From a virus (taxonomy: Duplodnaviria; Caudoviricetes): 43,123 nt of DNA. Both the position numbers and the translations under genes were made by a program. The notes under the pieces were generated by a model that was not told the origin of the DNA, did not search any database, and worked only from the letters and a program-made list of their open reading frames with translations. Positions 910 through 35,151 of this stretch are shown here, piece by piece. The stretch covers positions 1 through 43,123 of the IMG/VR virus record IMGVR_UViG_3300022177_000076; one strand, 5' to 3'. The first letter of the stretch is position 1; each line of letters opens with the position of its first letter.

Positions 910-1401
910 TTCGCACATTCTGGAAATATCCCAGCGTTTCTTTGCGTTTTGACTCTAAATGAATAAAGACTCGCCGCGCACACTAATCGCGGATTTCAGG
1001 CTGTTTTTTGAGTCTGCACGGATTTTAGGCAGTTTGCGAAAATACCGGCTTTTCCGGTTGTGCGTACTTATGCGGATAAGATACGCATAAAGGGAAATGT
1101 TCGTATACATCCGAGTAAAGATGCATACAAAAGTTATGTCAAAGTTTTGACAAAACTGGTTATATCGTAAACTTTTGTCAATTTACTGAGAGAATTTCGG
1201 TATGGCGAAAACTTTTTGTCGGTTATGTTACACAAATGTTTTTGTGCGTCAAAAGTGAGATACAAGGCGCACCATTAGAAAGTTTACGAAATAGCCGTTA
1301 AAGGTAGAAATAATTCATACCTTTAACTTGTCGGTTATGTTCTATGGATTTCAGGAATTTGGAATTTTGTCGATTATGGTCGAGAAAAATATAAATAAAT
1401 G

Positions 1402-1500
1402 ACCCGCCCTGGTCCGCTGACTGTTTCTCACGCGCCCGTGAGGTTGCCTTGCCCCAACATCGGCTGCGCTTGCTCTGCTGGGTTGCCGCGCGCGGCGGGT
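1402..1500 (-). ncRNA. Candidate ~100-nt structured sRNA
   Basis: Extended -10 TGGTATAAT at 1513-1521 (minus), terminal stem ACCCGCC/GGCGGGT, T-rich tail. Confidence 0.4.
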
Positions 1501-1536
1501 ACTGTTATCAATATTATACCATACCTTCGCTCCATA

Positions 1537-1602
1537 AGCTGGTGGCGGGAATCGAACCCGCGTTCCGAACGCTTACAAGGCGTTCCACAGCCATACACCA
1601 GC
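1537..1602 (-). ncRNA. D-armless tRNA-like RNA, anticodon UGU (Thr-like)
   Basis: Acceptor GCTGGTG/CACCAGC; anticodon arm AACGC-CTTGTAA-GCGTT; T arm GCGGG-TTCGATT-CCCGC; only 11 nt in place of the D arm. Confidence 0.7.
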
Positions 1603-1610
1603 AAACCATT

Positions 1611-1680
1611 AGGGCTGTTCGGAATTGAACCGATTTTCTGACCACCTCAGCTCAGGCGTCAGAGCGCGCCCGCCGGCCCT
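1611..1680 (-). ncRNA. Second D-armless tRNA-like RNA
   Basis: Acceptor AGGGCCG/CAGCCCT (1 mismatch), T arm TCGG-TTCAATT-CCGA, elongated middle arm TCTGAC...GTCAGA. Confidence 0.5.
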
Positions 1681-1682
1681 GT

Positions 1683-1723
1683 ATTCCTGCTATTCGGGAG
1701 TGGTATGCCAGAATAGCAGGAAT
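1683..1723. repeat. 13-bp perfect inverted repeat (terminator or processing stem)
   Basis: ATTCCTGCTATTC ... GAATAGCAGGAAT directly after the phosphoesterase stop. Confidence 0.6.
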
Positions 1724-1730
1724 TGCCAGA

Positions 1731-3029
1731 TTACACCCTCACATTGCTATTGACTATCGCCTGCAGCCCGCGCTCCTTATCCCACACGAACGCCTGCGCG
1801 CGCCGCGTTGTACCAACAAATCCATTCTCGCTATGCCACGCGTCTGCTGCGGTTATGCTGCTGATTCGCCGGAATACAATCCCGCCTTTATCCAGCGTGT
1901 TCTCAGTATGCAGGTGCCCGAGATGATACTCGCGCCAGACTGATTTACCCCACGCTTCCGGAGCTTCCACCTGCATCAGCCCCTCAATGCGTTTTCCCTC
2001 TTCAACCCCATGCGCGAAGCCAATCAAGCTGGACCCATAACTGAAATATTTCCGGCGCGTGGGGGATAAGTTCACCTCAACGCCCTTACATTCCGCGTAT
2101 CTTTGCGCCAGCCCAACGGTCGCAGTATAGGAAAGGACCGTATCGTGGTTACCTGGTATCCAGATGATTTTCACGGGCGCGATTGCCCGGCATTGCTCCA
2201 CCGCCCAGACTAAAAGCTCCACACCTTTACTGTACATCTTTTGCCAGCGAGTATCCGAATCTAATTGTGTTCCAGCCGTTGTAGTGGTCTGTGGTGTGTC
2301 AAAGTGGAAGTAATCCTGCCCGATTGGGAACAAAATCAACTCCGGCTTTCCAAACAACCCCGCCTTGCTGAGTAAATCCACAACTGTTTTTCGCCACAAC
2401 TTTTCCGCGATTTTCAGGTCATAATCCTGCCCGCCGGTCTCTTCACCCCAAGCCAGCTTGCCCAGATGAAAGTCCATAATCGGCAGTTCAAGCAGATACT
2501 TCCCGCCGCGATATTGATATGCTGTCAGCTCAGGCTCAGGCAGGTTTTTGAATATTTCAAGCACCTGGTCACTGGTTAGATTGCCCCCCAGCGGCTTGAC
2601 CGTCAGCGTAACCGAATATTTCCGGTTGGTATGCAGCACGCCCTCGCCGTCCGCGTTTTTGAGCGTCACATCCCACGAGCCGGTGATGAGCTTGCAAGTC
2701 ACCACTTCCCAAAGCAGCGGGTCAAACCCGCATTTTTTCATAATCGAAGTCGGCGAGGCAGCTTCTTCCGGCGTCAGATACACATCCCGCTTGATGGTCT
2801 GCGTCTGGTCTTTATTGAAAGTCGTTTCCTCATGCGAACAGCGTTGCGCTTGTTCGGGTGGAACAGCCGTGCCCGCGCCCATCTTTTCAAGTTGCAGAAT
2901 GTGCAGTTTGATACCCGCGAGATACTTCTTCGCGTTGTGATAGGTTATATCTTTTCCGTACAGCCTGCGTAGTTTTTCCTGCGCATTCCCGCCGCCGTCA
3001 GCCAGCACCTGCTGTTCAAATGAGTTCAC
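1731..3029 (-). CDS. Calcineurin-like metallophosphoesterase
   Basis: DFHLG, GQDYFH, GNHD, HG and GHLH metal-binding motifs. Confidence 0.85.
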   Translation of the reverse strand: MNSFEQQVLADGGGNAQEKLRRLYGKDITYHNAKKYLAGIKLHILQLEKMGAGTAVPPEQAQRCSHEETTFNKDQTQTIKRDVYLTPEEAASPTSIMKKCGFDPLLWEVVTCKLITGSWDVTLKNADGEGVLHTNRKYSVTLTVKPLGGNLTSDQVLEIFKNLPEPELTAYQYRGGKYLLELPIMDFHLGKLAWGEETGGQDYDLKIAEKLWRKTVVDLLSKAGLFGKPELILFPIGQDYFHFDTPQTTTTAGTQLDSDTRWQKMYSKGVELLVWAVEQCRAIAPVKIIWIPGNHDTVLSYTATVGLAQRYAECKGVEVNLSPTRRKYFSYGSSLIGFAHGVEEGKRIEGLMQVEAPEAWGKSVWREYHLGHLHTENTLDKGGIVFRRISSITAADAWHSENGFVGTTRRAQAFVWDKERGLQAIVNSNVRV

Positions 3030-3032
3030 AGA

Positions 3033-3140
3033 TTATCGCTCTTGAACCGTGATCCAAATCGAGCGTTCGTCCGTCCGCCCCTTGCTGGTATATCCGGATG
3101 TGCCGCGCTTATGTGTTTGTCCTGATTCCGACAGGCTCAT
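3033..3140 (-). pseudogene. 35-aa ORF, probable internally deleted phage tail/fiber adaptor gene
   Basis: ATGA overlap with the lysin stop, AGGAGG RBS, ends TSKGRTDERSIWITVQER*. Confidence 0.4.
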
Positions 3141-4570
3141 TGTTTCCTCCTGTAACTCGTACATTGCAGGGTAGCCTTTTTATACCTGTCCCTGTATCTG
3201 ATAAGCACCCCATCCCAGGGGTCGTAAATCCATAACACGTCATTGCCTCTGTTTACTGAGCAAACCCAGTGCTCATTGAGAGGCGCGGACGCTTCGATAT
3301 GGTCTACGAGTATCACCAACCCGCAGCCAGCCTGCACCTTCGCTATCATCTGCGCGTCAGTCGGGTTATACATCCGCCCGTCCCAAACGATTTCAGGGTG
3401 CTGTTCTTGCACCCTTTCCCAGATTATTTTGTTGCTCTCAAAATATCCGTTGTTCTCTGTACGCCATTTGTTATCTACAAATGGGTTCGTAACCACGCCC
3501 AACTGGTTCAGGACATTCGCTTCGCTGGTGATTACACAGCCATAGCCCCCGATAGTGGATGTTCCCGTTCCCAGCCGCTCATTGACCCAGCGCGGGTCTT
3601 TTTGCCAGTACAACGCCCCATAATACGGTTCAGTAATAACAGGCGGCGGCTGAGGCGGCGTATTATCGTCAAGCTTTTCAAGCCACGCGCTGTTAGACCA
3701 TCCACCCTTGTTATGGCGGCTCCAACCAAGCGCATTCTCGTAGACTTCCACGATAGTTCCAAAAACCATTGCGGGTGCGGATATTGGATAGCTGTATCCC
3801 GCGCCCGACCGGACGTTCAGTCCGGCGGTTGCGGTAACCCGCGCAAGATATGCGGGTTCAGGTTCAGGCGGCTCAGGTTCCGGCTCCGGCTCAACTTCCC
3901 CGTAGCCAAACCACTCCCGCACATCTGCGTCGCTTCCGTTCCATCGGTCATAGTCCAGCACTTTACTCGCGCAATTGAACAGCGGCGGCATCTGGTCGCC
4001 CGTCTGGTGAACGCGCCAAGTACTCACGCCATTGGGCAAAGCAGGCGGCGGTGTTTTCTCTTTCGCGTACTGTCCCGGAAGTGGCAAGAGATAATGCGCA
4101 AGCCAGTAATCAAGGTTCTTCGGCAGCCGCGCCATATCCACATAGGTATTTAACCATTGCGCCCGTGAGTAAATTATCGGGTATCTGCCTGTTTTCTCTT
4201 TGAGATACTCCAACGCGCCAAGCAGCCAATCGGTAACCTGCTTTTTACTCAACCCCATATGGTTTTCCATATCCAGCACAAGGCGGTCGTGTACATCCGG
4301 CTTGACAACGGACAGAAACTTATCCATCTGTAGCTTCATATCAGCCGCCGGATAGCAATAATGATAGCTTCCCAGTGGAATATCAACCCTTGCCGCCTCG
4401 CGCTTATAGTACGCGTATCGGGGGTCGGTGTATCCGTAGCTGACGGTTGCTCTCGCGAAGATGAAGCTGACCTTTTCGGAATGTCGTTTCATCGCATCAA
4501 AGTCCACCAGCTTGCTTCCGTCATCAAAGCACTGGTATTTACTCAAATCTATTCCAAACGCATGGCTCAT
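3137..4570 (-). CDS. Modular endolysin: GH25 muramidase + SH3b + C39-like peptidase
   Basis: GIDLSKYQ and LDME (GH25); EP/PP linkers; GLNVRSGAG (SH3); Q.DPRW...GYGC...HWV...DP (C39-like). Confidence 0.9.
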   Translation of the reverse strand: MSHAFGIDLSKYQCFDDGSKLVDFDAMKRHSEKVSFIFARATVSYGYTDPRYAYYKREAARVDIPLGSYHYCYPAADMKLQMDKFLSVVKPDVHDRLVLDMENHMGLSKKQVTDWLLGALEYLKEKTGRYPIIYSRAQWLNTYVDMARLPKNLDYWLAHYLLPLPGQYAKEKTPPPALPNGVSTWRVHQTGDQMPPLFNCASKVLDYDRWNGSDADVREWFGYGEVEPEPEPEPPEPEPAYLARVTATAGLNVRSGAGYSYPISAPAMVFGTIVEVYENALGWSRHNKGGWSNSAWLEKLDDNTPPQPPPVITEPYYGALYWQKDPRWVNERLGTGTSTIGGYGCVITSEANVLNQLGVVTNPFVDNKWRTENNGYFESNKIIWERVQEQHPEIVWDGRMYNPTDAQMIAKVQAGCGLVILVDHIEASAPLNEHWVCSVNRGNDVLWIYDPWDGVLIRYRDRYKKATLQCTSYRRKQ

Positions 4571-4611
4571 AAACCGTTCACTCCCATTCGTGCGCCGTTG
4601 CGCAGTAAATA

Positions 4612-5412: not shown

Positions 5413-5425
5413 AGTTGTTTCTCCT

Positions 5426-5962: not shown

Positions 5963-5965
5963 CGC

Positions 5966-15871: not shown

Positions 15872-16396
15872 TCATTTGAGACCAGCCGCCTTCCTCATCG
15901 CCCGGACTAAGTCCTCATCCGGGTCGGCAGACGCACCTGGTTTATGTTTCACCCCGTCAACGATTACCGTCTCGGGCTCAGTAAATTTGCTGTTCTCAGT
16001 AAGGAACGCACTCAGGTTCTTTTCAAAGTCGCCTTCAAGCTTGCCAACCTTGAACATCACATAATCCACGTCCCCGCCCTTCACGCCTGCCAAAATAATG
16101 GCTTTTTCGCGCTCAAGGTTCACGGCTTTTGCCTCGGCAGCTTGCAGCGCCTTTTCGCGCTCTGCCGCCTTTTCGGCTTCGGTCTGCTGAGACTTCTTCC
16201 ACTCGCGATAAGCTTTCAACTCATCTGCTTCCGGTTGGTTTTTACGCTCCCGCGCCAACCGCTCAGATACAATCCTGTCAAGCTCCGCCTGTGTGAATGT
16301 CTTTTCCGGTTCTTCCGTACTTGATTTTTCCGCAGCTGTCTGCGTATTTTCCTGAGCTTCCTCAGTAGTGGTTTTGGCTTTCTCTTCGTCTTCCAT
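15872..16396 (-). CDS. Capsid scaffolding protein
   Basis: KTFTQAELD.IV..RL.RE motif, charged coiled coil. Confidence 0.85.
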   Translation of the reverse strand: MEDEEKAKTTTEEAQENTQTAAEKSSTEEPEKTFTQAELDRIVSERLARERKNQPEADELKAYREWKKSQQTEAEKAAEREKALQAAEAKAVNLEREKAIILAGVKGGDVDYVMFKVGKLEGDFEKNLSAFLTENSKFTEPETVIVDGVKHKPGASADPDEDLVRAMRKAAGLK

Positions 16397-16450
16397 GATT
16401 TTGTTCCTTTCCGTTTATGCGCCCGTCGGCATGTAAAGGCGTGATGGGGA

Positions 16451-16549
16451 GTTAAAACAAACGCCCGGAACACGGCTGCTATTTCAAGCAACATGTCCCA
16501 GGCGGAAAACTCTGGCATCACTATTCAGTTGTAAATAGATTATACCACA
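16451..16549 (-). promoter_or_regulatory. Late promoter plus structured leader/terminator (copy 1)
   Basis: TGTGG-TATAAT, ACAACTGAATA, hairpin ending GGGCGTTTGTTTT; 22-nt identity with 23950-23971. Confidence 0.65.
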
Positions 16550-16579
16550 AAATCAGAAAAGCAAATCAATTTCCGTCAT

Positions 16580-16648
16580 TTACCCGTCATTGTCGATGTA
16601 GTTCTCCACCACATCGCGGATGCTGATTTCTTGCAGTTCGATTTTCAT
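16580..16648 (-). pseudogene. Truncated N-terminus of a DUF262/HNH-type restriction endonuclease
   Basis: MKIELQEISIRDVVENYIDNDG*, ATGA-coupled to the methylase stop. Confidence 0.65.
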
Positions 16649-17673
16649 AAACCTATTACCTTCTTTTTTATTATTAGCCTTGTGTACATCCTTTTACCAT
16701 TGATATAAGGGCGTCCTTTTTTCAATGATATATCAACACCTGTCTGACCAAGTATTTCGAATTGCTCAGGATTATATTTATCGAGGAATGTTATTGGAAC
16801 GCCCATAAGACCATTGAAGTCGCAGGGAATTTCAGCCACCTTATCCACATTGATGGCGTCGTAGTTGTCGTAGGTTGGGTACTCCTCGGGCGTGTAACGC
16901 TTGTAGAGCGTGAGGCTCTCGTGGCGTTTGCTGGTATCCAGATTGGTATACCAACATCCCATAATGTGCTTTATGCGTTTTCCATCGGTCACTTTTTCAA
17001 AATCGTATCCCTCGGGAACAATAAACCACATATCGTCATTAATGTTTCGATATCCCAACCAAATCTGACTGTTTTTGATTAATTTAAATATTTCTTTATA
17101 CGTGATTGCATTCTTATTGCCAATAATGATGAACTTCTTGTCATGCTCCACCAACTGCGCGACGTATTCCCGGAAGAGGGAGAAGGGCGGGTTGGTCACC
17201 ACGATATCGGCTTGTTTCAGCAATTCCACGCACTCCGCCGAGCGGAAGTCGCCGTCGCCCTCCAGGAACGAGAAAACATTCTTGCGGTTCTTCAACAGGT
17301 TTTCCACGTCGGTCAGGTCCACCGCGCCGTCCCGGTTCAAATCCGGCACCTCCGTGATTTCTATCTTGTAAGGTTTGCTGCCAGCCCCCTTCCTGACCCC
17401 CGGATTCCGGACTTCAAACAGCGGCAGCTGCCCGTAAGCCACCGGGGATTCGGAATAGCTGGTGGCGATGAGCTTCTTCAGGCCCAGGTAATTGAAGTTC
17501 ATCGCAAAGTACTTGAAAAAGTTGCTCTCGTAAGGGTCGTCGCAATTGCACAGGACCACCTTGCCGTGGAAGTGCTCCTTGTAGTGGCGCAATTCCGCCT
17601 CAATATCCGGCATCTGCGTATAAAACTCGTCGGCTTTGTTCTTTTTGGCTTTATCCAGGTCTCTCACAGACAT
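16645..17673 (-). CDS. Adenine-specific DNA methyltransferase, EcoRI-methylase family (start moved to ATG 17673)
   Basis: K.DEFYT, CNCDDP..SNF, GDFRS.EC, VTNPPFSLFREY, GVPITFLDK motifs. Confidence 0.92.
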   Translation of the reverse strand: MSVRDLDKAKKNKADEFYTQMPDIEAELRHYKEHFHGKVVLCNCDDPYESNFFKYFAMNFNYLGLKKLIATSYSESPVAYGQLPLFEVRNPGVRKGAGSKPYKIEITEVPDLNRDGAVDLTDVENLLKNRKNVFSFLEGDGDFRSAECVELLKQADIVVTNPPFSLFREYVAQLVEHDKKFIIIGNKNAITYKEIFKLIKNSQIWLGYRNINDDMWFIVPEGYDFEKVTDGKRIKHIMGCWYTNLDTSKRHESLTLYKRYTPEEYPTYDNYDAINVDKVAEIPCDFNGLMGVPITFLDKYNPEQFEILGQTGVDISLKKGRPYINGKRMYTRLIIKKKVIGL

Positions 17674-17768
17674 CCTGCCCCGCGCTCCTGTTTCGCATCC
17701 GTTATTGTGGAACACAGCTATTGTAACCAATTCCGTCCGCTTGTGGGTTTTTTCACCGCGGTGAATGT

Positions 17769-17840
17769 GTAGGGGCGAAGCACCCTGATGAGGAGCTTCT
17801 TTGCCATCCGGCTGCCGGGTGGGGGCGCTTCGCCCCTGCG
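17769..17840. repeat. REP/REPIN-like inverted repeat
   Basis: GTAGGGGCGAAGC ... GCTTCGCCCCTGC with GTAG tetranucleotide. Confidence 0.6.
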
Positions 17841-18024
17841 CCGCCCGTGCGTTCACGGTAAAAAGCCCAACCCTTACAGGCGGAGATCGCGCCGGTCTTG
17901 CGTAGCACCCCGGCACCAAAGGTGCGTGTGGGCAGACCGCGCGCGCCGCAATCTCTCACCCTCCCCCTTCTCATCATTGCCCATAGGGCGCTATAGTCCG
18001 AGCCTGATCCAGACGCGCCCCTAT

Positions 18025-18137
18025 TTGCGATTCTGTTTTGTTTATGCTATACTGTAGTTGCTCTGAGGTGGGAAGACACCCCCCACGCCCAGAAATGGAC
18101 AAGAGATGCCGATGTCGTGCACGGTGTACGGAGCACC
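18025..18137 (+). ncRNA. Promoter plus structured sRNA copy 1
   Basis: TTGCGA-17-TATACT; closing stem TGCTCTG/CGGAGCA; GAGGTG..CACGC..CAA.AGATG core. Confidence 0.65.
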
Positions 18138-18195
18138 ATTCCGGTGAGATGATAGAACGAATCTATTTATCAAGGCCGGTTTTATTATCAATTAT

Positions 18196-18324
18196 TTGCA
18201 ATTCTGTTTTGAATGTGCTATACTTTATTTGTCTGAGGTGAGAAATTTTGCCACCCACTCACACACTGAGTCCGTAAAAGGCCAGTCAAGGTAGATGCAG
18301 GGCGTGGTGGACCTGCCAGACAAA
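18196..18324 (+). ncRNA. Promoter plus structured sRNA copy 2
   Basis: TTGCAA-17-TATACT; closing stem TTTGTCTG/CAGACAAA; same core as copy 1. Confidence 0.7.
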
Positions 18325-18352
18325 AGAAGCCGATATTTTCTCGGCTTTTTTT
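18325..18352. terminator. Bidirectional intrinsic terminator
   Basis: AAAAGAAGCCGA-TATTTTC-TCGGCTTTTTTT between sRNA copy 2 and the muF stop. Confidence 0.8.
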
Positions 18353-19955
18353 ATTGAGTGCTCCGCCCATTCTCAAGCCCTTGTAAGTATTCCTTTACTT
18401 TAGCAAATCGATAACTATGGATTGAATTTAGTTTTACAGGGTCGTTCGTTACCCATAAGGCTGCCCGAAGATATCTATCAACATCGTATTTTTTATAGAG
18501 AATTGCTATTCTGGGATCGAAGGTGTTAGTATGAACATCATCTGGCTTTACTACCATCCTAATTAGGTCCTCCATCAAACCTTTCATTTCTGGGTGGGTT
18601 TCATAAATATGGTTTCTTCTCTCGCCAGTAAGAACCCATTTATTGGTTTCTATATCCGACCAATAACGTTTTACTCTCTCTGGGACATCACCCAATATCA
18701 AGACATGTTTTTCTTCATTCAAGGAGTTGATCTGAATTACTTTTTGATCTAAGGTTAGGTCAGACGCATCAAACCAGCCAGGGGGATAGGACGTCTCTGC
18801 TTTCACAGGTCTGAACCCACTCACAGCCGCCCTGTCCAACGCCGCCGGTGTCTTGAACAGAGTCGTTATCTCCCCATACTTCTGCTTCAACTGGTTCAAG
18901 CGCAACTGCTCCACCTTCCGCGTCAGATCATCACCCGAAGCCGCTGCCAACACCGCACGATCTTTCGCCTTGCGCATCTCCGCTTCGATCCGCCGCTGTA
19001 ATTGGGTCGCTTCATAAGCCGTGTATTCCTTGCCCTCAAAAACCCGCTTCTCAGTAGAATTGGCAATCATCGCCTGACGTTCCGCCTCCGTATACAGAGG
19101 GCTCGATACGCCCAGGATTATCGGCATGAATGTATGACGGCAGTTCCACATTCCAAAATCACGTGGCAACTCCTCTTGTATCTGCTCAAACTCCGCCTTG
19201 CTGAATTGCCGCCCCTGAAATGGCAGATGATCCGGCGCGCAAAAATTGTGCGCGTCAATTTCCACCCCGTCCGCGCCAAATTCCTCCCCCGTTTGCCGCG
19301 CAATTTCATGCGCAATGTCCTTCACCCCGTCAATCACGTTTTGCCGCATCGCGCTGTCAAGACGGCGCGAGTAACCACTCTCATAATCAAGAACTCTGAT
19401 ACCGCTGTCCGCTGTTTGCTTCAATGCCTGCCGGAATGCGGAATTATACGATTTTTGCCCCGTTGCGACCTCAGCGATAGCCTGGTCAACAAGATTATGA
19501 TAATGCTCTTTGAAGCCTCTGTAAATTACTTTGCCATCAGCATTCATTACTCTGAATCCAATTGCCCCTGTATTACTGAGGTTGGCAAACGTACCGCGCG
19601 TGGTCGCCGCCACACCCCTCACAAAGTTGATTATCGCCGTCTGATATTCAATTGGTATCTGCTCTAAACCCTTCGCCGCGTAATACTTGTTCGCGCTCTT
19701 ATAGGCAAGTTTCGCCGCGGTAACATATATTTCCTCAACGCTGTTTGCCGACCGCCCCAGTTCGTTCAGAATCTCGCGATATAGCCTCTCCGCCTCTCTG
19801 TCAGCCCCGCTGAGCGTAAAAAGCCGGTCAAATCCCGACCCCCTGGCAGCCAGCGCGATCCTTTTACCCAGCGCCTCCAAAACGCGCGAATTGAGCCGCT
19901 CTAAACCCACTCCCGCGCCTTTGGCAATCTCCTCAAGCCATTTGAGAGTAAACAC
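18351..19955 (-). CDS. MuF-type minor capsid protein with C-terminal PBECR-like nuclease extension
   Basis: H..CAPDH...QG and NCRH motifs; C-terminal LTGERRNHIYETHPE...KPD...YKKY...SIHS. Confidence 0.85.
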   Translation of the reverse strand: MFTLKWLEEIAKGAGVGLERLNSRVLEALGKRIALAARGSGFDRLFTLSGADREAERLYREILNELGRSANSVEEIYVTAAKLAYKSANKYYAAKGLEQIPIEYQTAIINFVRGVAATTRGTFANLSNTGAIGFRVMNADGKVIYRGFKEHYHNLVDQAIAEVATGQKSYNSAFRQALKQTADSGIRVLDYESGYSRRLDSAMRQNVIDGVKDIAHEIARQTGEEFGADGVEIDAHNFCAPDHLPFQGRQFSKAEFEQIQEELPRDFGMWNCRHTFMPIILGVSSPLYTEAERQAMIANSTEKRVFEGKEYTAYEATQLQRRIEAEMRKAKDRAVLAAASGDDLTRKVEQLRLNQLKQKYGEITTLFKTPAALDRAAVSGFRPVKAETSYPPGWFDASDLTLDQKVIQINSLNEEKHVLILGDVPERVKRYWSDIETNKWVLTGERRNHIYETHPEMKGLMEDLIRMVVKPDDVHTNTFDPRIAILYKKYDVDRYLRAALWVTNDPVKLNSIHSYRFAKVKEYLQGLENGRSTQ

Positions 19956-24318: not shown

Positions 24319-24515
24319 CCCGTTTCCTCGCTCCGCATGTCCCAAAGTTTCCACCCCCGCCGCTCACATTCCGCATCCGCAATCAGCCGGCAGCCTGCAA
24401 TCGATGGACCCTCAACGATAAAAGACTCCTGGGTATTGTCATTAATAACCCGATACCTGTACACATCCTCGCTCTGTAAAGCCGCAAGAAGCGCCTCGCC
24501 AATCGTACCCATCAT
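24315..24515 (-). CDS. Hypothetical phage protein
   Basis: Coupled ORF within the operon. Confidence 0.5.
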   Translation of the reverse strand: MMGTIGEALLAALQSEDVYRYRVINDNTQESFIVEGPSIAGCRLIADAECERRGWKLWDMRSEETG

Positions 24516-25399
24516 CCACCTCCCAACATCCTCAATGCATCCGTGTTGCTCAGATTATTCAACCTGGCAAACAGGTTCACCACATCCAAAGGCTTCGCCG
24601 TGCAGCCCGAAAAACACCCGCATAACTGCCGCTCGGTATCCACCCAGAACGACGGATTGCTATCCTCATGAAATGGACATTTTGTCAGTCCCCAGTGTTC
24701 ACCCGTAAACGAAATCTCGCCCAGATAATCCTCGATCCTGTGCGCCTTTTTCACCTCCTCGATGTTCACACCGATTTTCATATCCAAAACCTGGGCGGGC
24801 GTGCGGTCAACAACTTCCCAATCCACTTTGCGCGTAGGTATCGCCGTCCTCTCAGCCAATCTCAGCGTCTCCGCGGGGAACAACTCAGTAAGCGACTGCC
24901 AGGTGGGAAAACTACCCGCCTGGTATTCCACATAAACCGCCCCGCTCGGATGGACGGACCCGGGCAATGTCACCAACCCGCCGCGCCCTTTGATATCAAT
25001 TTTCCCGAAATGCAGATTCCGCACCTCATCCACGCACCGCGTATACACATGCAGCCCCCGCGAAGTGCGCACCTTGTATGCGTCCCGCAAGATCGCCTGG
25101 GCGACTGGGTTCGCTGTTCCAGCCCACAAGGACCAACGCATGTATTCAGTCAGATCGTCAAAGTCGATCACCACCAGATTATTTGTTCCGGTCACAACAG
25201 CGCCGTTCGATGGCACCCTGAACCACCGCAGCAATTCATCCTCAGTAGGCAGCCGATCCTTATACACGCCCCACTTGAGCCGCGGGATTTTTGTCCCCAA
25301 ATGACACGGAATTACTGAAAATCCCTGATGGACGAACCAAAAGACCGTGGGCAGGTCAACACTCTCAATTATGTCTGTTTTCATCTCAAAAAGCTCCAA
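24512..25399 (-). CDS. Bifunctional primase-polymerase with C-terminal CHC2 zinc finger
   Basis: GFSVIP..K.P, VIDFD, T.RGLHVY, PGSVHPSG; CPFH.D..PS...CGCF.GC. Confidence 0.9.
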   Translation of the reverse strand: MELFEMKTDIIESVDLPTVFWFVHQGFSVIPCHLGTKIPRLKWGVYKDRLPTEDELLRWFRVPSNGAVVTGTNNLVVIDFDDLTEYMRWSLWAGTANPVAQAILRDAYKVRTSRGLHVYTRCVDEVRNLHFGKIDIKGRGGLVTLPGSVHPSGAVYVEYQAGSFPTWQSLTELFPAETLRLAERTAIPTRKVDWEVVDRTPAQVLDMKIGVNIEEVKKAHRIEDYLGEISFTGEHWGLTKCPFHEDSNPSFWVDTERQLCGCFSGCTAKPLDVVNLFARLNNLSNTDALRMLGGG

Positions 25400-25402
25400 A
25401 AG

Positions 25403-25617
25403 TGCAGGGTTTGCAGGGTTTGAAGTGCCGATTTCATAAAGTTTCTTTAATCCTCACACGTAAAACCTTATACATTAGGGGAGTAAGCAAAAGCTGCATT
25501 TCAACGAGTAACCCTGCATAGAGGGTAATAATATAGTTAAGCGAAATGCCCTTTTAAACCCTGCAAACCCTGCAGATTTATGCATTTTTGTTACTTTTCC
25601 GCTTAAAACCTTATACA
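25403..25617. repeat. Putative replication origin with iterons
   Basis: Five AACCCTGCA units (two inverted tandem pairs plus one) and two TAAAACCTTATACA in an AT-rich gap between helicase and prim-pol. Confidence 0.7.
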
Positions 25618-25627
25618 ACATATTCTC

Positions 25628-27538
25628 TCATTTCCTGTTGAATCGGTACTCTAAAATTCTTGTACGATTTTCCTGACTTTCCATATCATAGCGATCCTTT
25701 AACACACTCCTGACGTTCATCAATCGCCTTCCAAAAGCCTTCACGCTGCGCGGCCAATCACTGTCGGGTTTGTTGCCGCCAAACAGCAGCTGCTGCGCTT
25801 CGGTGTAAAGCTCCCGTGCCGTCACCCAACGGCCAACGTTGTTTACTATCTTGAGAGCGGAAACACTCGTGTCATTGATCCACGCGTCAACCGCTTCGAT
25901 CACAATCTCACCGTCCGCGAGAAAGTTGTTTTGCGCCAGTTTGAGATCAGTAACGATGTCTTCCCAGAGATCCACCTTGTCGGCTTGTGTGCTCATCAAT
26001 CGCCCCAGCGCCTCCCAGTCCGCCATACGGAGAGTGGATGTCGAAGGCAGGTCGCCCTTTTGCAGCTCCCTGACCACGGCATTCAGGTTCGTCAGCAGAT
26101 CACCCCACCAGGCATCGCGCAGCGCGTCAATTTCAGTCAGGAACAGCGATTCGCGGCGGCGGTCGTCATCATCCACCCGGTTGAGCGGCAAAAGTAATAA
26201 ACGGTCGCTCAGATCATCCCTGCGCAGAGTGTCAGGAGTCCGCGCGGTCATCGCGATCCAGCAGCGGTATTTGAGGATGCCGAGTTCTTTCGAGGTATAC
26301 AGCTTTCGATATTCGTCCATCGCCCCGGTCGAAATCCGCGCGAGTTTATCCTGCAGCCAGCCTTCCATGGAGTCGAGATTATCCATCGCGTACAGGTGAT
26401 AATGAGACGCTGTTACCGAGAAGTCATCCGCTTTGGCTGGCACTCCGCTCACTTGCGCCCATTGGCCAAATAACAGCCTCAGTAAAAGGCGCAGCGCCAT
26501 GGACTTGCCGGACCCTTTTTCACCCAGCAAAACCATCATAGGTTTCGTCGGGCAAAGTTCGTTGAAAAACAGTGTTTGGGTCCAAACTTTGTATGCCCAC
26601 GCGTGCTTGCGTTTATTCCAATTGGGAATATCCGCGATAATCTCTGTTGCATGTTGGGGGTTGGTAAAGTCCGGCTCGTAGGGTTCCCAGAAATGCAGAT
26701 CGTCAAAAATAACCGCGCCGTCGCCATTGTCCCTGAGTGTGATCGTGTCGCCGTCCAGACAATAAATTTTGCCATCAAACCGGCTTACCCACAGAACTTT
26801 TGCATCCTGGTCAAAGTATGCCAGCCGCATCACCTGTTTGACCTCGCTGTTCAGGATCGCCGCGCTTTTGCATGCGTTACTGAGCACACTGAAGCCAGTC
26901 GAAGCCGGATTGACCCCGGTGAGCTCGTGTAGCCACGCGTGCCAGCGTTCCGTGTCAAGTTCAAATAGCCGGTATTTCTGATGCCAGAGGTAGAAAAGTT
27001 CCGCCTCCGGCGTGCGAATGAATTTGCCGTTCGCGTGCAGCCAGGTAAGCAGCAGGCTCTCCGCGTTAGCCAGACGTATGTTTGCGCTCACGCCCTGCAC
27101 AGGTGTAAGGATGTCTTCCAGCGCATCCTGCAGCTTTGGGTCCGGCGGGTTCATCAGGGGGTTTCCCAGTCGCTTGCCCCGGGCTGCCGTAAATCGTGCC
27201 CCCAGTTTCAGCCGCTGGTAATTTGTGCCCAATTTTGCCCCCTGAGTCGATACCAGGCTGCTTACTGCCAGCCCAAGAGCACCGTCCATGTGGCTGCAGA
27301 CTTCAGTGATCGCTTCCCTCACAGGGCGGTTGTTTACCACCATCTCAATCCACATTTCCCGCCATGGGGAGCAATTCAGCTTCGGCGGTAGCGGCGGTTG
27401 ATCCACCTGATACGCCATGGCAATGATCTCAAGTTCATCACGCCAGGTATCCCCGTCCAGCGTGCCATACTCAGCCAGCAGCTCTGCCTGGTCGACCGCC
27501 GGAATTTTTAGTTTCGTCAATACCGCGTCAATAATCAC
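25628..27538 (-). CDS. Primase-associated P-loop helicase/ATPase
   Basis: GEKGSGKS, AMDN, RKLYT, DL.DR, RMADW motifs; winged-helix-like C-terminus. Confidence 0.8.
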   Translation of the reverse strand: MIIDAVLTKLKIPAVDQAELLAEYGTLDGDTWRDELEIIAMAYQVDQPPLPPKLNCSPWREMWIEMVVNNRPVREAITEVCSHMDGALGLAVSSLVSTQGAKLGTNYQRLKLGARFTAARGKRLGNPLMNPPDPKLQDALEDILTPVQGVSANIRLANAESLLLTWLHANGKFIRTPEAELFYLWHQKYRLFELDTERWHAWLHELTGVNPASTGFSVLSNACKSAAILNSEVKQVMRLAYFDQDAKVLWVSRFDGKIYCLDGDTITLRDNGDGAVIFDDLHFWEPYEPDFTNPQHATEIIADIPNWNKRKHAWAYKVWTQTLFFNELCPTKPMMVLLGEKGSGKSMALRLLLRLLFGQWAQVSGVPAKADDFSVTASHYHLYAMDNLDSMEGWLQDKLARISTGAMDEYRKLYTSKELGILKYRCWIAMTARTPDTLRRDDLSDRLLLLPLNRVDDDDRRRESLFLTEIDALRDAWWGDLLTNLNAVVRELQKGDLPSTSTLRMADWEALGRLMSTQADKVDLWEDIVTDLKLAQNNFLADGEIVIEAVDAWINDTSVSALKIVNNVGRWVTARELYTEAQQLLFGGNKPDSDWPRSVKAFGRRLMNVRSVLKDRYDMESQENRTRILEYRFNRK

Positions 27539-27544
27539 AGGGCG

Positions 27545-28108: not shown

Positions 28109-28134
28109 TTTTTCCTCCTTTACTGAGTAAAAAG

Positions 28135-30107: not shown

Positions 30108-30116
30108 CTTTACCGC

Positions 30117-31163: not shown

Positions 31164-31175
31164 TTTTCCTCGTTT

Positions 31176-31913: not shown

Positions 31914-31946
31914 CGTATTCCTTTACTCAGTAAAATGTCTTGCCAA

Positions 31947-32014
31947 CGCCGCGCCGGGGAGTCGAACCCAGCAGGAGGAAAGGAGGAGGAAACCTCCCGG
32001 GCCATCCGCGCGGC
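31947..32014 (-). ncRNA. D-armless tRNA-like RNA with CCUCC repeats in the middle arm
   Basis: Acceptor GCCGCGC/GCGCGGC, T loop GGG-TTCGACT-CCC, middle arm GGAGG-TTTCCTCCTCCTTT-CCTCC. Confidence 0.6.
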
Positions 32015-32021
32015 AGCCCTG

Positions 32022-32147
32022 CTATGCGAACACTGATGCTAAGAAATTTTCATTTGCCTCCTGGTCCCGTTCAATGGCTATCTCAATTGCGTCTTCGGGC
32101 GAAAAATAGCCCGGGTCATCAACATAGGCGTTCACAAATTCGTCCAT
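32022..32147 (-). CDS. 41-aa acidic protein
   Basis: MDEFVNAYVDDPGYFSPEDAIEIAIERDQEANENFLASVFA*, starts 1 nt after the upstream stop. Confidence 0.45.
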   Translation of the reverse strand: MDEFVNAYVDDPGYFSPEDAIEIAIERDQEANENFLASVFA

Positions 32148-32148
32148 C

Positions 32149-32820
32149 TCAGCCGCCTATGGCTTGCGAAACTAATTCAATGACCTCATCGCTGGTTGCG
32201 GTGAAGTATTTTTTCATAATTGGTGATGCGTTGATTTTTGTTTCAACGATTGGCAAGATTTCGTCCATTCTGGCTTTCTCCTTCGCCGCGGACCGTACAG
32301 TCGCGCCAAGAAATTTTAAGGCTGTTTCATACTCAGCTCCATTTTCAGGAACCGGAGCGGCTTCAGTGCTTGCTTCCGCGCCGCCCATGCTGTTCGCCAG
32401 AAAATTCTGTTCGCATTCGGTCGCGTTTTTGAAAATTTTGACGAAATGCATATAGGTTTTGTTCTTCACTTCGCCCTGGGAGTTTGTGTACGTATCGCCG
32501 GTCGGCTCAAACTTAATGCGTACGTGCTTTCCGTCAATTTTTGACGCCTGTACTCCGGCTGCCAAAATGGACTCTTGCGTCAGCTTCCATTCTTTGCTGG
32601 TCTGGATCAGGCTGCGTTCTGCCAGATTCGCGCCCTGGATGTTCAGCGGCACCACGCTCAGGTCAATGGCGTGAACCATGGACTTATGCACCGCCGGGTC
32701 AAAGACGATTTTTCCCTGCCCTTTCACCAGGGCGGCTTTCCATACATAGACGGAAACTTGGCCCCAAATTTCATAGCTGGGAGGTAATACGGGTTGGTCG
32801 AGAATATTCATGTCTGTCAT
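32149..32820 (-). CDS. Hypothetical protein, possible SSB/recombination accessory (start moved to ATG 32820)
   Basis: AAGGA RBS; position upstream of ERCC4 and ATPase genes. Confidence 0.55.
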   Translation of the reverse strand: MTDMNILDQPVLPPSYEIWGQVSVYVWKAALVKGQGKIVFDPAVHKSMVHAIDLSVVPLNIQGANLAERSLIQTSKEWKLTQESILAAGVQASKIDGKHVRIKFEPTGDTYTNSQGEVKNKTYMHFVKIFKNATECEQNFLANSMGGAEASTEAAPVPENGAEYETALKFLGATVRSAAKEKARMDEILPIVETKINASPIMKKYFTATSDEVIELVSQAIGG

Positions 32821-32897
32821 GGTGTTTTCCTTTCGTTGGTTAGTTGAATGTGTTGGCTCGGTAAAGTGTCGTTGTGTACTCCAATAGGCTCCTTTGG

Positions 32898-33002
32898 TTA
32901 GTTGAGTTTGTTTACTGCGCTGCTCATCTCGTCGATGTAATCGGCAATCCAATTCAGCGCGATAAGTATGCACGGCAGAAGAACCATCAGCGCGGGTTTC
33001 AT
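32898..33002 (-). CDS. 34-aa hydrophobic peptide
   Basis: MKPALMVLLPCILIALNWIADYIDEMSSAVNKLN*, GGAGG RBS, ATGA coupling. Confidence 0.45.
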   Translation of the reverse strand: MKPALMVLLPCILIALNWIADYIDEMSSAVNKLN

Positions 33003-33106
33003 CGCTGCCCGTCCTCCGGTATGCTTTCAAGCCACGCCACCGCGCCGATAATCAACGCAGCCAGCGCAATCCACTTCAAAATCATTAACAGCCAATACGC
33101 GTCCAT
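32999..33106 (-). CDS. 35-aa single-TM peptide
   Basis: MDAYWLLMILKWIALAALIIGAVAWLESIPEDGQR*. Confidence 0.45.
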   Translation of the reverse strand: MDAYWLLMILKWIALAALIIGAVAWLESIPEDGQR

Positions 33107-33173
33107 GCTTCTGCTCTTTCAGTCGCCACCCCCCAGGCAAAAATCGTGCAGTCCGGGATTTGTTCAAATGCTT

Positions 33174-33569
33174 CTAACGCCCCCATGGTGTCACCTCAAC
33201 ATTGTCCTTTTTCGCCTCTTCCTGGCTGACTGCTCTGTAAATGGTTGGTCCCAACTCGGTAACTACCGGCTTTGGCCAGATGTAAATCTTGTTGTCGCGG
33301 ATCGCGGTCGAGACCGCCCCCTTACCAAGAATCCACTGCGCGTGCGACATATGGTTGATCCGCAGGCGGCGCATATCATTTTTGGACGTGCCCTCTGGAT
33401 AGGTGGCGCACAGTATTTCCCCTGGCTTCAGATACAGCAGGCGTTGATGAAACTCATTCAGCTGGTTGCATGGCAAAGCGGGTACGAGGTCAACAATTTC
33501 AAATAATGGGTCGGGTCTTTTATAGTCTTTACGTCTCATTTCTCTCCTTATTTGGTAAAATTCATCCAC
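33174..33569 (-). CDS. Hypothetical phage protein
   Basis: 131-aa ORF in the early operon. Confidence 0.5.
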   Translation of the reverse strand: MDEFYQIRREMRRKDYKRPDPLFEIVDLVPALPCNQLNEFHQRLLYLKPGEILCATYPEGTSKNDMRRLRINHMSHAQWILGKGAVSTAIRDNKIYIWPKPVVTELGPTIYRAVSQEEAKKDNVEVTPWGR

Positions 33570-33591
33570 CTAATACAGAAAGGCGGCTAAC

Positions 33592-33846
33592 ATGGGTGAT
33601 AAAAAGTGTTGGCGTTGTAAAGCAGCTGCCCGGTTTTCGATATTGATTTCTCCTGGTAAAGATCGCTGGTATCTGCCAAATCAGAACGCCAGAAATTCAG
33701 GGCCTCCGCTGTTGGAAGTTTGGCTTTGTGAAACTTGTGCGCATGAGCTTGATTCATTGCTTACTTCCTTTCTTCCTGCTCTGGGAGATTCGTTACTCTA
33801 CGAAGATCGTCCACCGTCCCTTTTCGTCCACAAGCCAGACAAATAA
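33592..33846 (+). CDS. Small C2C2 zinc-finger protein, opposite strand
   Basis: GAAAGG RBS; CWRC ... CETC. Confidence 0.5.
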   Translation: MGDKKCWRCKAAARFSILISPGKDRWYLPNQNARNSGPPLLEVWLCETCAHELDSLLTSFLPALGDSLLYEDRPPSLFVHKPDK

Positions 33847-33967
33847 AATCTTTTTCGTTGTAGGCTAACGAGGGCTTATGGTCGTCATGAAACGGGCATA
33901 ACATGAATTTCCATGCGACTACCTCTCTTTTTCTTTTAGGCTCTCTACGGGCTGATTGTTCTTTCAT
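33761..33967 (-). CDS. Stand-alone CHC2-type zinc finger
   Basis: CPFHDDHKPS...FICLACG.KG. Confidence 0.7.
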   Translation of the reverse strand: MKEQSARREPKRKREVVAWKFMLCPFHDDHKPSLAYNEKDFICLACGRKGTVDDLRRVTNLPEQEERK

Positions 33968-33970
33968 TCT

Positions 33971-34219
33971 TCACTCCTTTGCTTCATAAATTTTCTTGAT
34001 TGCCATAACCTTTTCATCTGCTTTTTTCAGCTTCAGGATCACCCGCCCCACCAGTCGGTAGGTTTCGCTCCCGTCCAGCCGTACATTCAAAAGAGTTTCT
34101 AATTCGCCGTTGATCTCGCGGTGGATCGCCTGCAGGTCCTCAAGCTGCCAAAACGTCTTATATCCGCCTTGCTTCGCCCGCTCGCGTTTGGTGCCGTTTT
34201 CAGGGCAAATTTGCGCCAT
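33971..34219 (-). CDS. Hypothetical early protein
   Basis: Coupled ORF after the Cro-like gene. Confidence 0.5.
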   Translation of the reverse strand: MAQICPENGTKRERAKQGGYKTFWQLEDLQAIHREINGELETLLNVRLDGSETYRLVGRVILKLKKADEKVMAIKKIYEAKE

Positions 34220-34221
34220 GT

Positions 34222-34437
34222 TTACGCCACTTCCTGGGATTCGCCGTCTGCGTTTGCTATGCTGTCCTCATGAGCATTGAGTTCGGCAGTCGCAGCGTGT
34301 CGCAAGCGGTACTCCCGCCGGATCAACCACGCCGCCTGGTTGCCGATCGTCCGCATATCCTCAGCCGCCAACGCCTTGATCATCGGCTCGATGTCTGTGT
34401 CTTTGATTTGGATCATGTAACTGTAGGGTTTTGCCAT
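34222..34437 (-). CDS. Ribbon-helix-helix (Arc/Cro-analog) regulator
   Basis: IKALAAEDMRTIGNQAAWLIRRE; divergent from the repressor. Confidence 0.7.
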   Translation of the reverse strand: MAKPYSYMIQIKDTDIEPMIKALAAEDMRTIGNQAAWLIRREYRLRHAATAELNAHEDSIANADGESQEVA

Positions 34438-34573
34438 TGCGCCTCACTATTTTGTGTTGGAGGAAGAGAAATTCTTCCCAGTGACAATAGTGTAAGGCAT
34501 ACTAAACGATTTGTCAAGGGGAAGAATAATTATTCCCAGTAATTTAGTGAAAAGAGGTAGTATGTTACTGCCA

Positions 34574-34903
34574 ATGGACAATATTTCAGAATTTCTTACC
34601 GCCGAAATGAATAAGGTTGGCATGAACCAGTCTGATTTGGCACGTAAAAGCGGCGTTTCAACTGGTCAGATTTCCCGTCTTATTAATGGCACCCGTGGTG
34701 TGGGTGAAAAATCTTTACGTGCCATTGCCGAAGCTCTTAGCGTTCCCCCAGACGTTATGTTTAGAGTAGCAGGCTTTTTACCCCCCGCGCCAGCCAAAAC
34801 AGAGCAAACAGAGCGGCTGCTCTACCTGTTCAACCTGATGGACGCGCGGCAAAAAGAAATCCTGCTCTCCCAGGCTAACTGGATACTGCAGGAAAAGCCC
34901 TAA
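34574..34903 (+). CDS. XRE-family HTH phage repressor
   Basis: MNQSDLARKSGVSTGQISRLING...IAEAL; start could also be 34562. Confidence 0.9.
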   Translation: MDNISEFLTAEMNKVGMNQSDLARKSGVSTGQISRLINGTRGVGEKSLRAIAEALSVPPDVMFRVAGFLPPAPAKTEQTERLLYLFNLMDARQKEILLSQANWILQEKP

Positions 34904-35151
34904 CCACCCCGCTGGTAAATCACGATTTGAACCATACGCCCGAATAATCGGAATGAGTAAATGGTCATCAATGGAAATTTCACACGCTTCATTTCCGCCG
35001 CTCCTTACTCCCATTATAGAACGGGTGTTCTAATTATTCAAGAGGACAAAAGCGGACTCAATTCACAGTTCAGATTTGTATGGCAAGGTTCCTGATGCTT
35101 TTACTGAGAGAAAATAATGGCACTAAATGCGCTCTCAACGAAGCGGCTATA

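What the first reader, a model, noticed from the sequence alone, without database searches (positions are those of the whole stretch)
1184..35108. Prophage-wide dispersed heptamer CTCAGTA/TACTGAG (~48 copies) written into coding sequence
Seen in sequence (manual count). CTCAGTA on + at 1902, 5532, 6332, 6862, 7225, 7900, 8322, 8679, 9137, 11087, 11504, 12011, 12521, 14078, 15977, 15995, 16361, 19050, 19962, 20157, 20349, 20901, 21007, 21857, 22132, 23505, 24884, 25241, 26478, 30510, 31402, 31926. TACTGAG on + at 1184, 3254, 8055, 11867, 13946, 15120, 19574, 20754, 23821, 26878, 27637, 28121, 29537, 29718, 31532, 35102. About 4 would be expected in 35 kb at equal base frequencies (2 x 35000/4^7). 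The motif often extends to CTCAGTAA, occurs in both orientations and in different frames (T-E, L-L-S/R, L-S, S-V), so amino-acid usage does not explain it. I found none in 35.2-40.6 kb (hicAB and host genes) and one in the second phage (40684). Inference: a DNA-level signal under selection in the phage. Options are stoperator-like repressor sites, sites for a genome-coating or packaging protein, a Chi-like protection or recombination cue, or a self-mark or decoy against a host defence system.
Basis: partly seen in the sequence, partly recalled or inferred. Interest (0 to 1): 0.9.

Follow-up and report, generated by a model that had tools for sequence, protein, structure and literature searches.

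The report
Phage primase's private start word
A seven-letter DNA word written 48 times into this prophage's genes travels with one unusual phage primase across dozens of related phages and small mobile elements, and is likely the start signal that this enzyme needs to prime DNA replication.

Summary
The 48 copies are real: all coordinates match, and 45 lie in genes against 3.8 expected after codon shuffling. The word is not host-wide. In Anaerolineaceae-family genomes it stops at prophage borders.

It tracks one gene, the primase at 24512-25399: a pRN1-type AEP catalytic domain joined to a DnaG-type zinc-binding domain (ZBD).
- 68 of 81 dereplicated primase loci are enriched; six loci with the same VWA gene but no such primase are not.
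- The word persists across four helicase types and in 4-10 kb elements with no virion-gene hits.
- Read as 5'-TACTGAG-3', it favours opposite strands either side of an iteron cluster just upstream of the primase.
- Its 5' side has an 8-nt C-rich flank, the size of a pRN1 primer.
- Its fourth base (T or C) covaries with one ZBD residue near known DnaG specificity residues, and this held in held-out loci.

Best reading (0.85): the primase's template recognition site, too rare by chance and so selected into genes. Priming is untested, and polarity is only partial.

The parts
1184..35108 (.). 48 dispersed copies of 5'-TACTGAG-3' (32 on the - strand, 16 on the + strand); 45 in genes, 3 intergenic (1184, 31926, 35102); likely primase recognition sites
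24512..25399 (-). 295-aa primase: Prim-Pol AEP domain (residues about 22-157, motifs D79/D81, H117, D135) plus a C-terminal CHC2 zinc-binding domain (C241, H244, C262, C266); carries 2 sites itself (24884, 25241)
   Evidence: Pfam PF09250 + PF01807; PDB profile hits pRN1 ORF904 and DnaG ZBD; conserved columns; model pLDDT 89.9 and Foldseek
24629..24631 (-). Codon for ZBD residue R257, in the turn before the strand bearing L259/C260; a basic residue here goes with TACTGAG, and D/Q/E (less clearly N/L) with TACCGAG or a mix
   Evidence: strand positions; alignment to 1d0q/2au3
25403..25574 (.). Predicted bidirectional origin: five 9-nt iterons (TGCAGGGTT x2 inverted to AACCCTGCA x3) around an AT-rich spacer, between helicase and primase; motif polarity changes here
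25628..27538 (-). 636-aa P-loop ATPase (weak VapE-like hit), predicted replicative helicase; replaced by VapE, D5 or AAA_25 helicases in relatives that keep the word
33761..33967 (-). 68-aa stand-alone CHC2 zinc-finger gene resembling the primase ZBD; role not tested
34222..34903 (.). Divergent switch region: 71-aa gene (RHH-like by position; the equivalent gene in G011 hits RHH_1) and XRE repressor; no copy of the word here
1..909 (+). Tyrosine integrase at the left end of the prophage
35152..35223 (+). tRNA-Cys at the right end of the motif-bearing region, likely the integration site; host genes follow
   Evidence: host-like genes

Best explanation
5'-TACTGAG-3' is likely the single-stranded template site that the phage's own primase (an AEP catalytic domain fused to a DnaG-type zinc-binding domain) must read to start a primer. 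Inferred steps: the helicase opens the iteron origin at 25403-25574 and two forks move out. The ZBD reads the heptamer on exposed template, with residue 257 helping to set the fourth base. The AEP domain then builds a short, G-rich primer of about 8-9 nt on the bases 5' of the word. A 7-nt word is expected only about 4 times in this genome, so selection has written it into coding DNA about every 0.7 kb, more often on the lagging-strand template of each arm; sites on the other strand would serve the opposite fork, rolling-circle replication or restart. Shown here: enrichment, confinement to the element, linkage to this primase, a strand shift at the iteron cluster, the one-sided flank and the residue-base covariation. 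Not shown: binding, priming and origin activity.
For: (1) Linkage. 91 of 120 primase-selected loci of at least 5 kb are enriched. After dereplication at 90%, 64 of 81 have the T-form and 4 more the C-form; at 50%, 18 of 26. Among loci selected by the VWA gene instead, 48 of 57 with this primase are enriched and 0 of 6 without it. Nine motif-poor capsid relatives, 86-100% complete, have no such primase. Mosaic G006 has a DnaB_2-type initiator and 0 of its 12 sites in the early region (p=0.012). (2) The word persists with VapE (40 of 47), D5 (7 of 9), AAA_25 (9 of 11) and window-type (10 of 12) helicases, while the iteron sequences differ between phages. (3) Six small integrated elements share only the primase, integrase and a helicase fragment with the window; they hold 53 sites in 40.9 kb against 2 in 65.1 kb of flank. 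In 3 of the 6 an inverted pair sits beside the iterons. (4) Polarity. In co-oriented genes, TACTGAG:CTCAGTA is 74:136 in the 5 kb upstream and 131:45 downstream (p=9e-15), with 29 of 33 loci in the same direction. The central base of the palindromic form shifts too, and fourfold-site GC skew rises at the same point in 57 of 68 loci. (5) C is enriched at -9..-2 on the 5' side only (0.35-0.38 against 0.22-0.29), on both strands, in 56 of 62 loci, and not around control words. pRN1 primers are about 8 nt and start outside the motif (PMC8718748, Introduction). (6) ZBD residue 257: the C-form is enriched in 1 of 53 loci with a basic residue and 9 of 14 with a non-basic one, the best of 655 column tests. 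In held-out loci T:C is 222:23 against 21:13, p=5e-5. L259/C260 sit where S. aureus I56/C57 set DnaG specificity (PMC2978363). (7) Per-strand spacing is more even than random in 5 of 16 tests, against 1 of 8 with strands pooled.
Against: There is no biochemical test. Polarity is partial: both strands are 5-10-fold enriched in every region. The window's half-genome test gives p=0.11 (p=0.02 within 10 kb), G011 shows no clear switch, and D5-type loci do not reach significance (p=0.18). 13 of 81 primase loci are not enriched; 6 fall in two long-branch clades, but the other 7 are nested among enriched loci with only 4-7 copies. The residue rule has exceptions: L608 (N, 7 T:0 C), L464 (L, 6:0) and L574 (Q, mostly T). 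The tree-based test has only 5 independent pairs; none goes the wrong way, but 5 cannot reach p<0.05. The primase-negative control group is small (6). Element borders were drawn by eye after the sites had been seen. The GC-skew shift could partly reflect early versus late gene class.
Confidence: 0.85

Rival explanations
1. The same primase/ZBD protein, or the stand-alone ZBD gene, binds the word for something other than routine priming, such as loading or restarting the replisome, autoregulation, or marking DNA for recombination.
For: It explains the gene linkage and residue covariation equally well. Both strands are enriched, and the primase gene holds about 2.5 sites per kb, well above other regions.
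Against: It does not predict a one-sided, primer-length C-rich flank or more even per-strand spacing. Catalytic AEP motifs are conserved.
Confidence: 0.07
2. A dimeric phage regulator (XRE repressor or RHH protein) binds the palindrome TACTSAGTA, or its half-site, genome-wide as a stoperator or coating protein.
For: In 21 of 81 loci most sites are the full palindrome; G011 has 43 palindromes among 44 sites. XRE and RHH genes are present in the window and in G011.
Against: There is no site in the switch region. Six small elements have no hit to the window's repressor yet carry the word. G006 and motif-poor G029 have related repressors without the dispersed pattern. The palindrome's central base is strand-polar, which a dyad would not need. 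Only 4 window sites match the TTACTNAGTAA palindrome.
Confidence: 0.04
3. A host factor of Anaerolineae (a defence enzyme, methyltransferase or nucleoid protein) reads the word, and mobile elements gain it as a self-mark or decoy.
For: All carriers with a host label point to Chloroflexota or Anaerolineae. The window also avoids GGCC (25 against 103 expected), so host restriction does shape this genome.
Against: The word is not enriched in host DNA. Related prophages in genomes of the same order that lack this primase also lack the word (G224, G251). It covaries with a phage-encoded residue and changes strand bias at the phage's iteron cluster.
Confidence: 0.03
4. The word is a packaging or virion-coating signal.
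For: Sites run through the whole phage genome, including structural genes.
Against: 55 of 80 capsid-related loci lack it. Terminase and portal types vary among carriers. Small elements with no virion-gene hits carry it.
Confidence: 0.01

Closest known systems
pRN1 ORF904 primase-polymerase (Sulfolobus plasmid; 5'-GTG-3' site)
   Same: Closest catalytic domain by profile (E 3.5e-19) and by fold (3m1m, 1rni). It primes about 8 nt outside its motif (PMC8718748), which matches the 8-nt 5' flank seen here.
   Different: ORF904 reads a triplet with a helix-bundle domain and is fused to an SF3 helicase. Here a CHC2 ZBD takes the place of the helix bundle, the helicase is a separate and exchangeable gene, and the word is 7 nt and selected into the genome.
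DnaG and T7 gp4 zinc-binding domain specificity (S. aureus I56/C57, T7 D31/H33)
   Same: Same CHC2 ZBD fold (1d0q, 2au3). The covarying residue lies two positions before the pair equivalent to I56/C57 (PMC2978363).
   Different: Those enzymes have a TOPRIM catalytic domain and 3-5-nt sites that occur often by chance. Here the ZBD is joined to an AEP domain and the site is 7 nt, extending to 9 in some lineages.
Phage NrS-1 PrimPol (5'-TTTGGTTA-3' and GTG-type sites)
   Same: [quoted passage not shown]
   Different: It uses a helix bundle and a fused helicase. The paper suggests the 8-mer serves initiation at a specific site and does not describe genome-wide enrichment in the passages read.
RSF1010 RepB' with ssiA/ssiB
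   Same: An element-specific AEP primase with a long site on each strand at the origin (PMC8567376). This resembles the inverted pair beside the iterons in 3 of 6 small elements.
   Different: ssi sites are 40-nt hairpins present once per strand. Here the word is short, repeated 20-77 times in whole phage genomes, and the window's own origin has no such pair.
Mycobacteriophage repressor-stoperator systems (features recalled)
   Same: Many copies of a short word spread across a temperate phage genome.
   Different: Here it is mostly coding, occurs on both strands relative to transcription, is absent from the switch region and is linked to the primase rather than the repressor.

Membership tests
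pRN1 ORF904-type Prim-Pol | AEP catalytic domain with motifs I-III | tested here: met
   PF09250; D79, D81, H117 invariant and D135 at least 90% conserved in 53 sequences; fold match
pRN1 ORF904-type Prim-Pol | Helix-bundle (PriCT) domain reads the template | tested here: not met
   The C-terminus is a CHC2 ZBD; relatives with PriCT are fused helicases and lack the word
pRN1 ORF904-type Prim-Pol | De novo primer synthesis next to a recognition motif | not testable with these tools
   Only the indirect 5' flank signal
DnaG/T7-type ZBD primase | CHC2 zinc-binding domain | tested here: met
   PF01807; C241, H244, C262 invariant and C266 at least 90% conserved; 1d0q rmsd 2.0
DnaG/T7-type ZBD primase | TOPRIM RNA polymerase domain | tested here: not met
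   The catalytic domain is AEP
DnaG/T7-type ZBD primase | Residues at the beta-4 strand set a template base | tested here: inconclusive
   Residue 257 covaries with base 4; this is correlation only, with 5 independent pairs and some exceptions
Replication priming site (general) | Strand bias that changes at the origin | tested here: met
   Pooled 74:136 against 131:45; 29 of 33 loci; partial, and the origin is predicted from iterons
RepB'/ssi-type origin priming | One long hairpin site per strand at the origin | tested here: not met
   48 dispersed 7-mers and no inverted pair at the window origin; a pair in 3 of 6 small elements only; hairpin folding not tested
Repressor-stoperator system | Sites at the immunity switch and tied to the repressor | tested here: not met
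Host-wide motif (Chi, KOPS, uptake sequence) | Enriched across the host chromosome | tested here: not met
   0.02-0.06 per kb in 5 genomes; no palindrome excess in 151 class genomes apart from repeat-element ends in G094; confined to prophages in host contigs
Methyltransferase target site | Word follows a phage methyltransferase and is modified | tested here: not met
   The window's EcoRI-family methylase had no hit in 21 motif-rich capsid loci or 18 other records; modification itself not testable

The most novel reading that the evidence does not exclude
A family of Anaerolineae phages and small integrated elements runs replication on a private addressing system. A hybrid AEP-ZBD primase demands a 7-9-nt word, tunable by one ZBD residue, and each element writes that word into its own genes. 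Priming would then be efficient only on 'self' DNA, so forks from an induced prophage would run short of priming sites at the host border. Capsid-less elements with the same word could share or compete for the primase.
Probability: 0.35. Interest if true: 0.88.

Novelty: new variant of a known kind. Interest (0 to 1): 0.74.

Why it matters
Known primase sites are either short words that occur by chance or single origin signals. Here a primase appears to need a word so long that whole genomes are rewritten at synonymous sites to supply it. The natural T/C variants point to one residue and one base, so how a zinc-binding domain reads its template can be tested with one small protein and a few oligonucleotides. 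The word also marks prophage and mobile-element borders in uncultured Anaerolineae, and it predicts origin position and lagging strand from sequence alone. It offers a general rule for other unexplained dispersed phage motifs: check the primase first.

Tried and rejected
- High-GC viral contigs found by the palindrome scan (G012, G013; G015 shares their genes) carry tandem heptamer arrays in clusters, not dispersed sites. They share no proteins with the window and were dropped.
- The 21 palindromes in host genome G094 are scattered over 21 contigs, and 7 of 14 fetched sit at ends of a repeated element. Not the same feature.
- The EcoRI-family methylase and the phrog_704 protein do not track the word.
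- The integrase is shared with the small elements but also with motif-poor G028 and with G006, and the sites are not confined to att ends.
- A hairpin reading was rejected: the C-form and the CA/CG-extended forms break the palindrome without compensation.
- A linker column tied to the 3' extension was not convincing on re-test.
- No alternative word was found for the 13 non-enriched loci; the middle part of that output was cut.
- The first primase alignment included two helicases by mistake and was discarded.
- Scans with single early proteins gave 0 and 1 loci.
- INPHARED and PLSDB hold no record covering 80% of the primase.
- The careful tree did not finish, so quick and FastTree trees were used.
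- The window's own host chromosome beyond about 5 kb of flank was not available, so same-host controls come from related prophages.
Full report
OBSERVATION. CTCAGTA/TACTGAG is the top 7-mer in 1-35200 (48 against 3.6, second-order Markov). In 47 called genes there are 45 sites against 3.8 in 500 synonymous-codon shuffles. Sites use four codon contexts (x-T-E, L/I-L-S/R, L-S-x, x-S-V). Against relatives, sites are kept more often than identity predicts (20 of 28 at 84% identity, where 30% is expected; 10 of 24 at 69%, where 7% is expected), and losses are balanced by gains elsewhere. Density is conserved more than position.

SETTING. The window is a whole virus record. It holds a temperate tailed prophage from the integrase (1-909) to tRNA-Cys (35152), about 5 kb of host-like genes, and a fragment of a second head module. 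The flanking copper ATPase is closest to Chloroflexota/Anaerolineaceae MAGs (66-75%). The phage primase was found in 21 of 401 genomes of that family, and the two organism-labelled names among its 120 listed homologues are Anaerolineae and Chloroflexota. The host assignment is an inference from these.

NOT A HOST MOTIF. Five nearby genomes have 0.02-0.06 sites per kb against 1.36 in the prophage. The palindromic form is not in excess in 151 class genomes, apart from G094, where 7 of 14 fetched copies are ends of a repeated element. In host contigs the word stops at the prophage: G627 has 29 sites in 40 kb and 0 in about 80 kb of flank; G284 56 against 3; G525 58 against 2; G612 is weaker at 16 against 2.

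WHAT IT TRAVELS WITH. Of 80 loci chosen by capsid protein, 21 are motif-rich, 4 intermediate and 55 poor, so it does not follow the virion module. In one search the primase had hits in 3 rich and 0 poor loci. The primase is a pRN1-type AEP domain plus a DnaG-type CHC2 zinc-binding domain.

Linkage tests. Of 158 primase-selected loci, 120 were at least 5 kb and 91 of these are enriched at p<0.001; the seven weakest hits scored (L420-L427, 24-33% identity, mostly AEP only) have 0-3 copies. Of 175 loci of at least 7 kb, 156 carry AEP+ZBD, giving 81 representatives at 90% identity: 64 T-form and 4 more with only the variant TACCGAG. Selection by primase is circular for gene content, so I selected 80 loci by the VWA gene instead. 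Of the 63 with enough sequence (17 dropped), 48 of 57 with AEP+ZBD are enriched and 0 of 6 without it. Nine motif-poor capsid relatives, 86-100% complete, have at most a fused AEP-helicase, and two motif-poor prophages in genomes of the same order have no hit. Complete phage G006 shares several structural genes at 75-94% with carriers but has a DnaB_2-type initiator; its 12 sites all lie outside the early region.

The helicase is exchangeable: the word occurs with VapE (40 of 47), D5 (7 of 9), AAA_25 (9 of 11) and window-type (10 of 12) helicases. Six 4-10 kb integrated elements in MAGs (five beside a tRNA and integrase, one cut by a contig end) have no virion-gene hits and share only primase, integrase and a helicase fragment with the window. 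They hold 53 sites in 40.9 kb against 2 in 65.1 kb of flank. I drew their borders by eye after seeing the sites, and they could be decayed prophages. In three of them CTCAGTA and TACTGAG form a close inverted pair right beside the iterons. Such pairs are not a feature of the phages (7 of this type against 15 of the opposite type).

POLARITY. Between helicase and primase the window has five 9-nt iterons in inverted arrangement around an AT-rich spacer (25403-25574). Seven relatives examined have inverted or iterated repeats at the same place, with different sequences. Reading this as an origin rests on recalled SaPI and P4 origin layouts. In genes co-oriented with the primase, TACTGAG:CTCAGTA is 74:136 in the 5 kb upstream, 131:45 at 1-5 kb downstream and 156:79 at 5-10 kb downstream; 29 of 33 loci shift the same way. 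Codon-shuffle-normalised folds also cross (6.1 and 8.9 upstream; 9.1 and 5.6 downstream). The palindrome's central base shifts likewise, as does the C-form (5:10 against 29:15, p=0.04). Fourfold-site GC skew rises at the same point in 57 of 68 loci. By standard fork geometry this puts TACTGAG on the lagging-strand template of both arms. Against this: both strands stay enriched, the bias is gone 5-10 kb upstream (65:58), G011 shows no clear switch, and the window gives 14:3 against 4:7 within 10 kb (p=0.02) but p=0.11 by halves. Per-strand spacing is more even than random in 5 of 16 tests, against 1 of 8 pooled.

FLANK. Over 1067 sites, positions -9 to -2 on the 5' side of TACTGAG are C-rich and position -1 is almost never G. 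The excess holds on sense and antisense strands, for palindromic and non-palindromic sites, in 56 of 62 loci and in the window (110 of 384 against 187 of 816). [quoted passage not shown] I read the flank as the primer template; that is inference.

RESIDUE-BASE COVARIATION. Among 67 enriched representatives (13 non-enriched loci and gappy L501 left out), the share of the C-form follows ZBD residue 257. The C-form is enriched in 1 of 53 loci with R/K/H and 9 of 14 with other residues, including 3 of 3 with D. This is the best of 655 column-by-class tests (p=6e-8; the next column gives 3e-4), and it holds among loci of at least 50% GC. The residue changes 7 times on the tree. Five independent pairs never go the wrong way but are too few for significance. 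In 52 held-out loci under 90% identical to the training set (2 could not be scored), T:C is 222:23 for basic and 21:13 for non-basic residues (p=5e-5; per locus p=0.011), with exceptions L608 and L464. Residue 257 lies in the turn before strand 259-262. L259/C260 align with the DnaG positions three and two before the third zinc ligand, where S. aureus I56/C57 and T7 D31/H33 set specificity (PMC2978363; two passages read). This is the most direct link between this protein and this word.

MECHANISM. Shown: enrichment, confinement, gene linkage, strand shift, one-sided flank, covariation. Inferred: the helicase opens the iteron origin, the ZBD reads 5'-TACTGAG-3' on single-stranded template, and the AEP domain makes a short primer on the 5' side for a polymerase to extend; no stand-alone replicative polymerase gene was found in the window. 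Because the word is rare by chance, selection supplies it roughly every kilobase per strand. The palindrome in some lineages is read here as a 3' TA extension of an asymmetric site. 13 of 81 primase loci are not enriched: six lie in two long-branch clades, four of them with a divergent ZBD, and seven are nested with 4-7 copies.

COMPARISON AND NOVELTY. It works like a primase recognition site. It is not a member of the ORF904 family (no helix bundle), the DnaG family (no TOPRIM) or the ssi family (not a single long hairpin per strand; PMC8567376, passages read). Active T7 sites number about 26 and are chosen by flanks from a common pentamer (PMC12839067, abstract only). PMC5862659 (passages read) has no occurrence of CHC2, zinc or ZBD in its main text; its supplements were not opened. 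Searches for the motif words, for primase plus over-representation, for AEP plus CHC2/DnaG and for Anaerolineae prophage primase returned no description, judged from listings. The library lacks most subscription papers. No cultured phage or plasmid record covers 80% of the primase. Stoperator, Chi, KOPS and uptake-sequence features are recalled, not read here.

VERDICT. A real feature, likely a long primase start word kept genome-wide by selection (0.85). New variant of a known kind; interest 0.74.

Noticed in passing
window 1-35230: GGCC is strongly avoided in genes (25 against 103 in codon shuffles), which suggests a HaeIII-like host restriction system.
   Followed up: partly
window 16645-17919 and 18228-18324: An EcoRI-family adenine methyltransferase gene and a skipping-rope RNA (RF02924) are inserted in the head module; this stretch is one of the longest motif-free gaps (16361-19050).
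   Followed up: partly
window 33761-33967 (-); L298:5618-5887: Stand-alone CHC2 zinc-finger mini-genes resembling the primase ZBD occur in the window and in G009; they could modulate priming.
   Followed up: no
window 1-35200: Weaker words CGTCCAT (17 against 3.5) and GAGTAAA (17 against 3.5); CGTCCAT recurs in close relative L001 but not in more distant ones.
   Followed up: partly
window 40250-40566: The copper ATPase stop codon abuts a scaffolding-protein gene cut in mid-frame; the second phage fragment (40256-43123) resembles G006-type head genes. This may be a deletion junction or an assembly join.
   Followed up: no
window 1182-1194 and 35100-35112: Two of the three intergenic sites share a 13-nt context (TTTACTGAGAGAA), one downstream of the integrase and one just before tRNA-Cys.
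   Followed up: no
window 1538-1612 (-): A tRNA-Thr(TGT) lies inside the prophage between the integrase and the lysis module.
   Followed up: no
L649, L650, L651, L653, L654, L655: 4-10 kb integrated elements in Anaerolineaceae-family MAGs with helicase, iterons and AEP-ZBD primase (five beside a tRNA and integrase) but no virion-gene hits; candidate phage satellites. Three have a second motif pair or site at the far end of the element.
   Followed up: partly
L325-L338 (G094): A repeated element whose ends begin with TACTCAGTA followed by conserved arms; possibly a MITE or IS with TA target sites.
   Followed up: no
L287-L293 (G012, G013, G015): Unrelated high-GC viral contigs carry clustered tandem arrays of the heptamer GTACTGA/TCAGTAC (seen in G012 and G013).
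   Followed up: no
primase genes of 81 loci: The primase gene itself holds about 2.5 sites per kb, mostly on its sense strand and often at recurring positions (for example the LPTE motif).
   Followed up: partly
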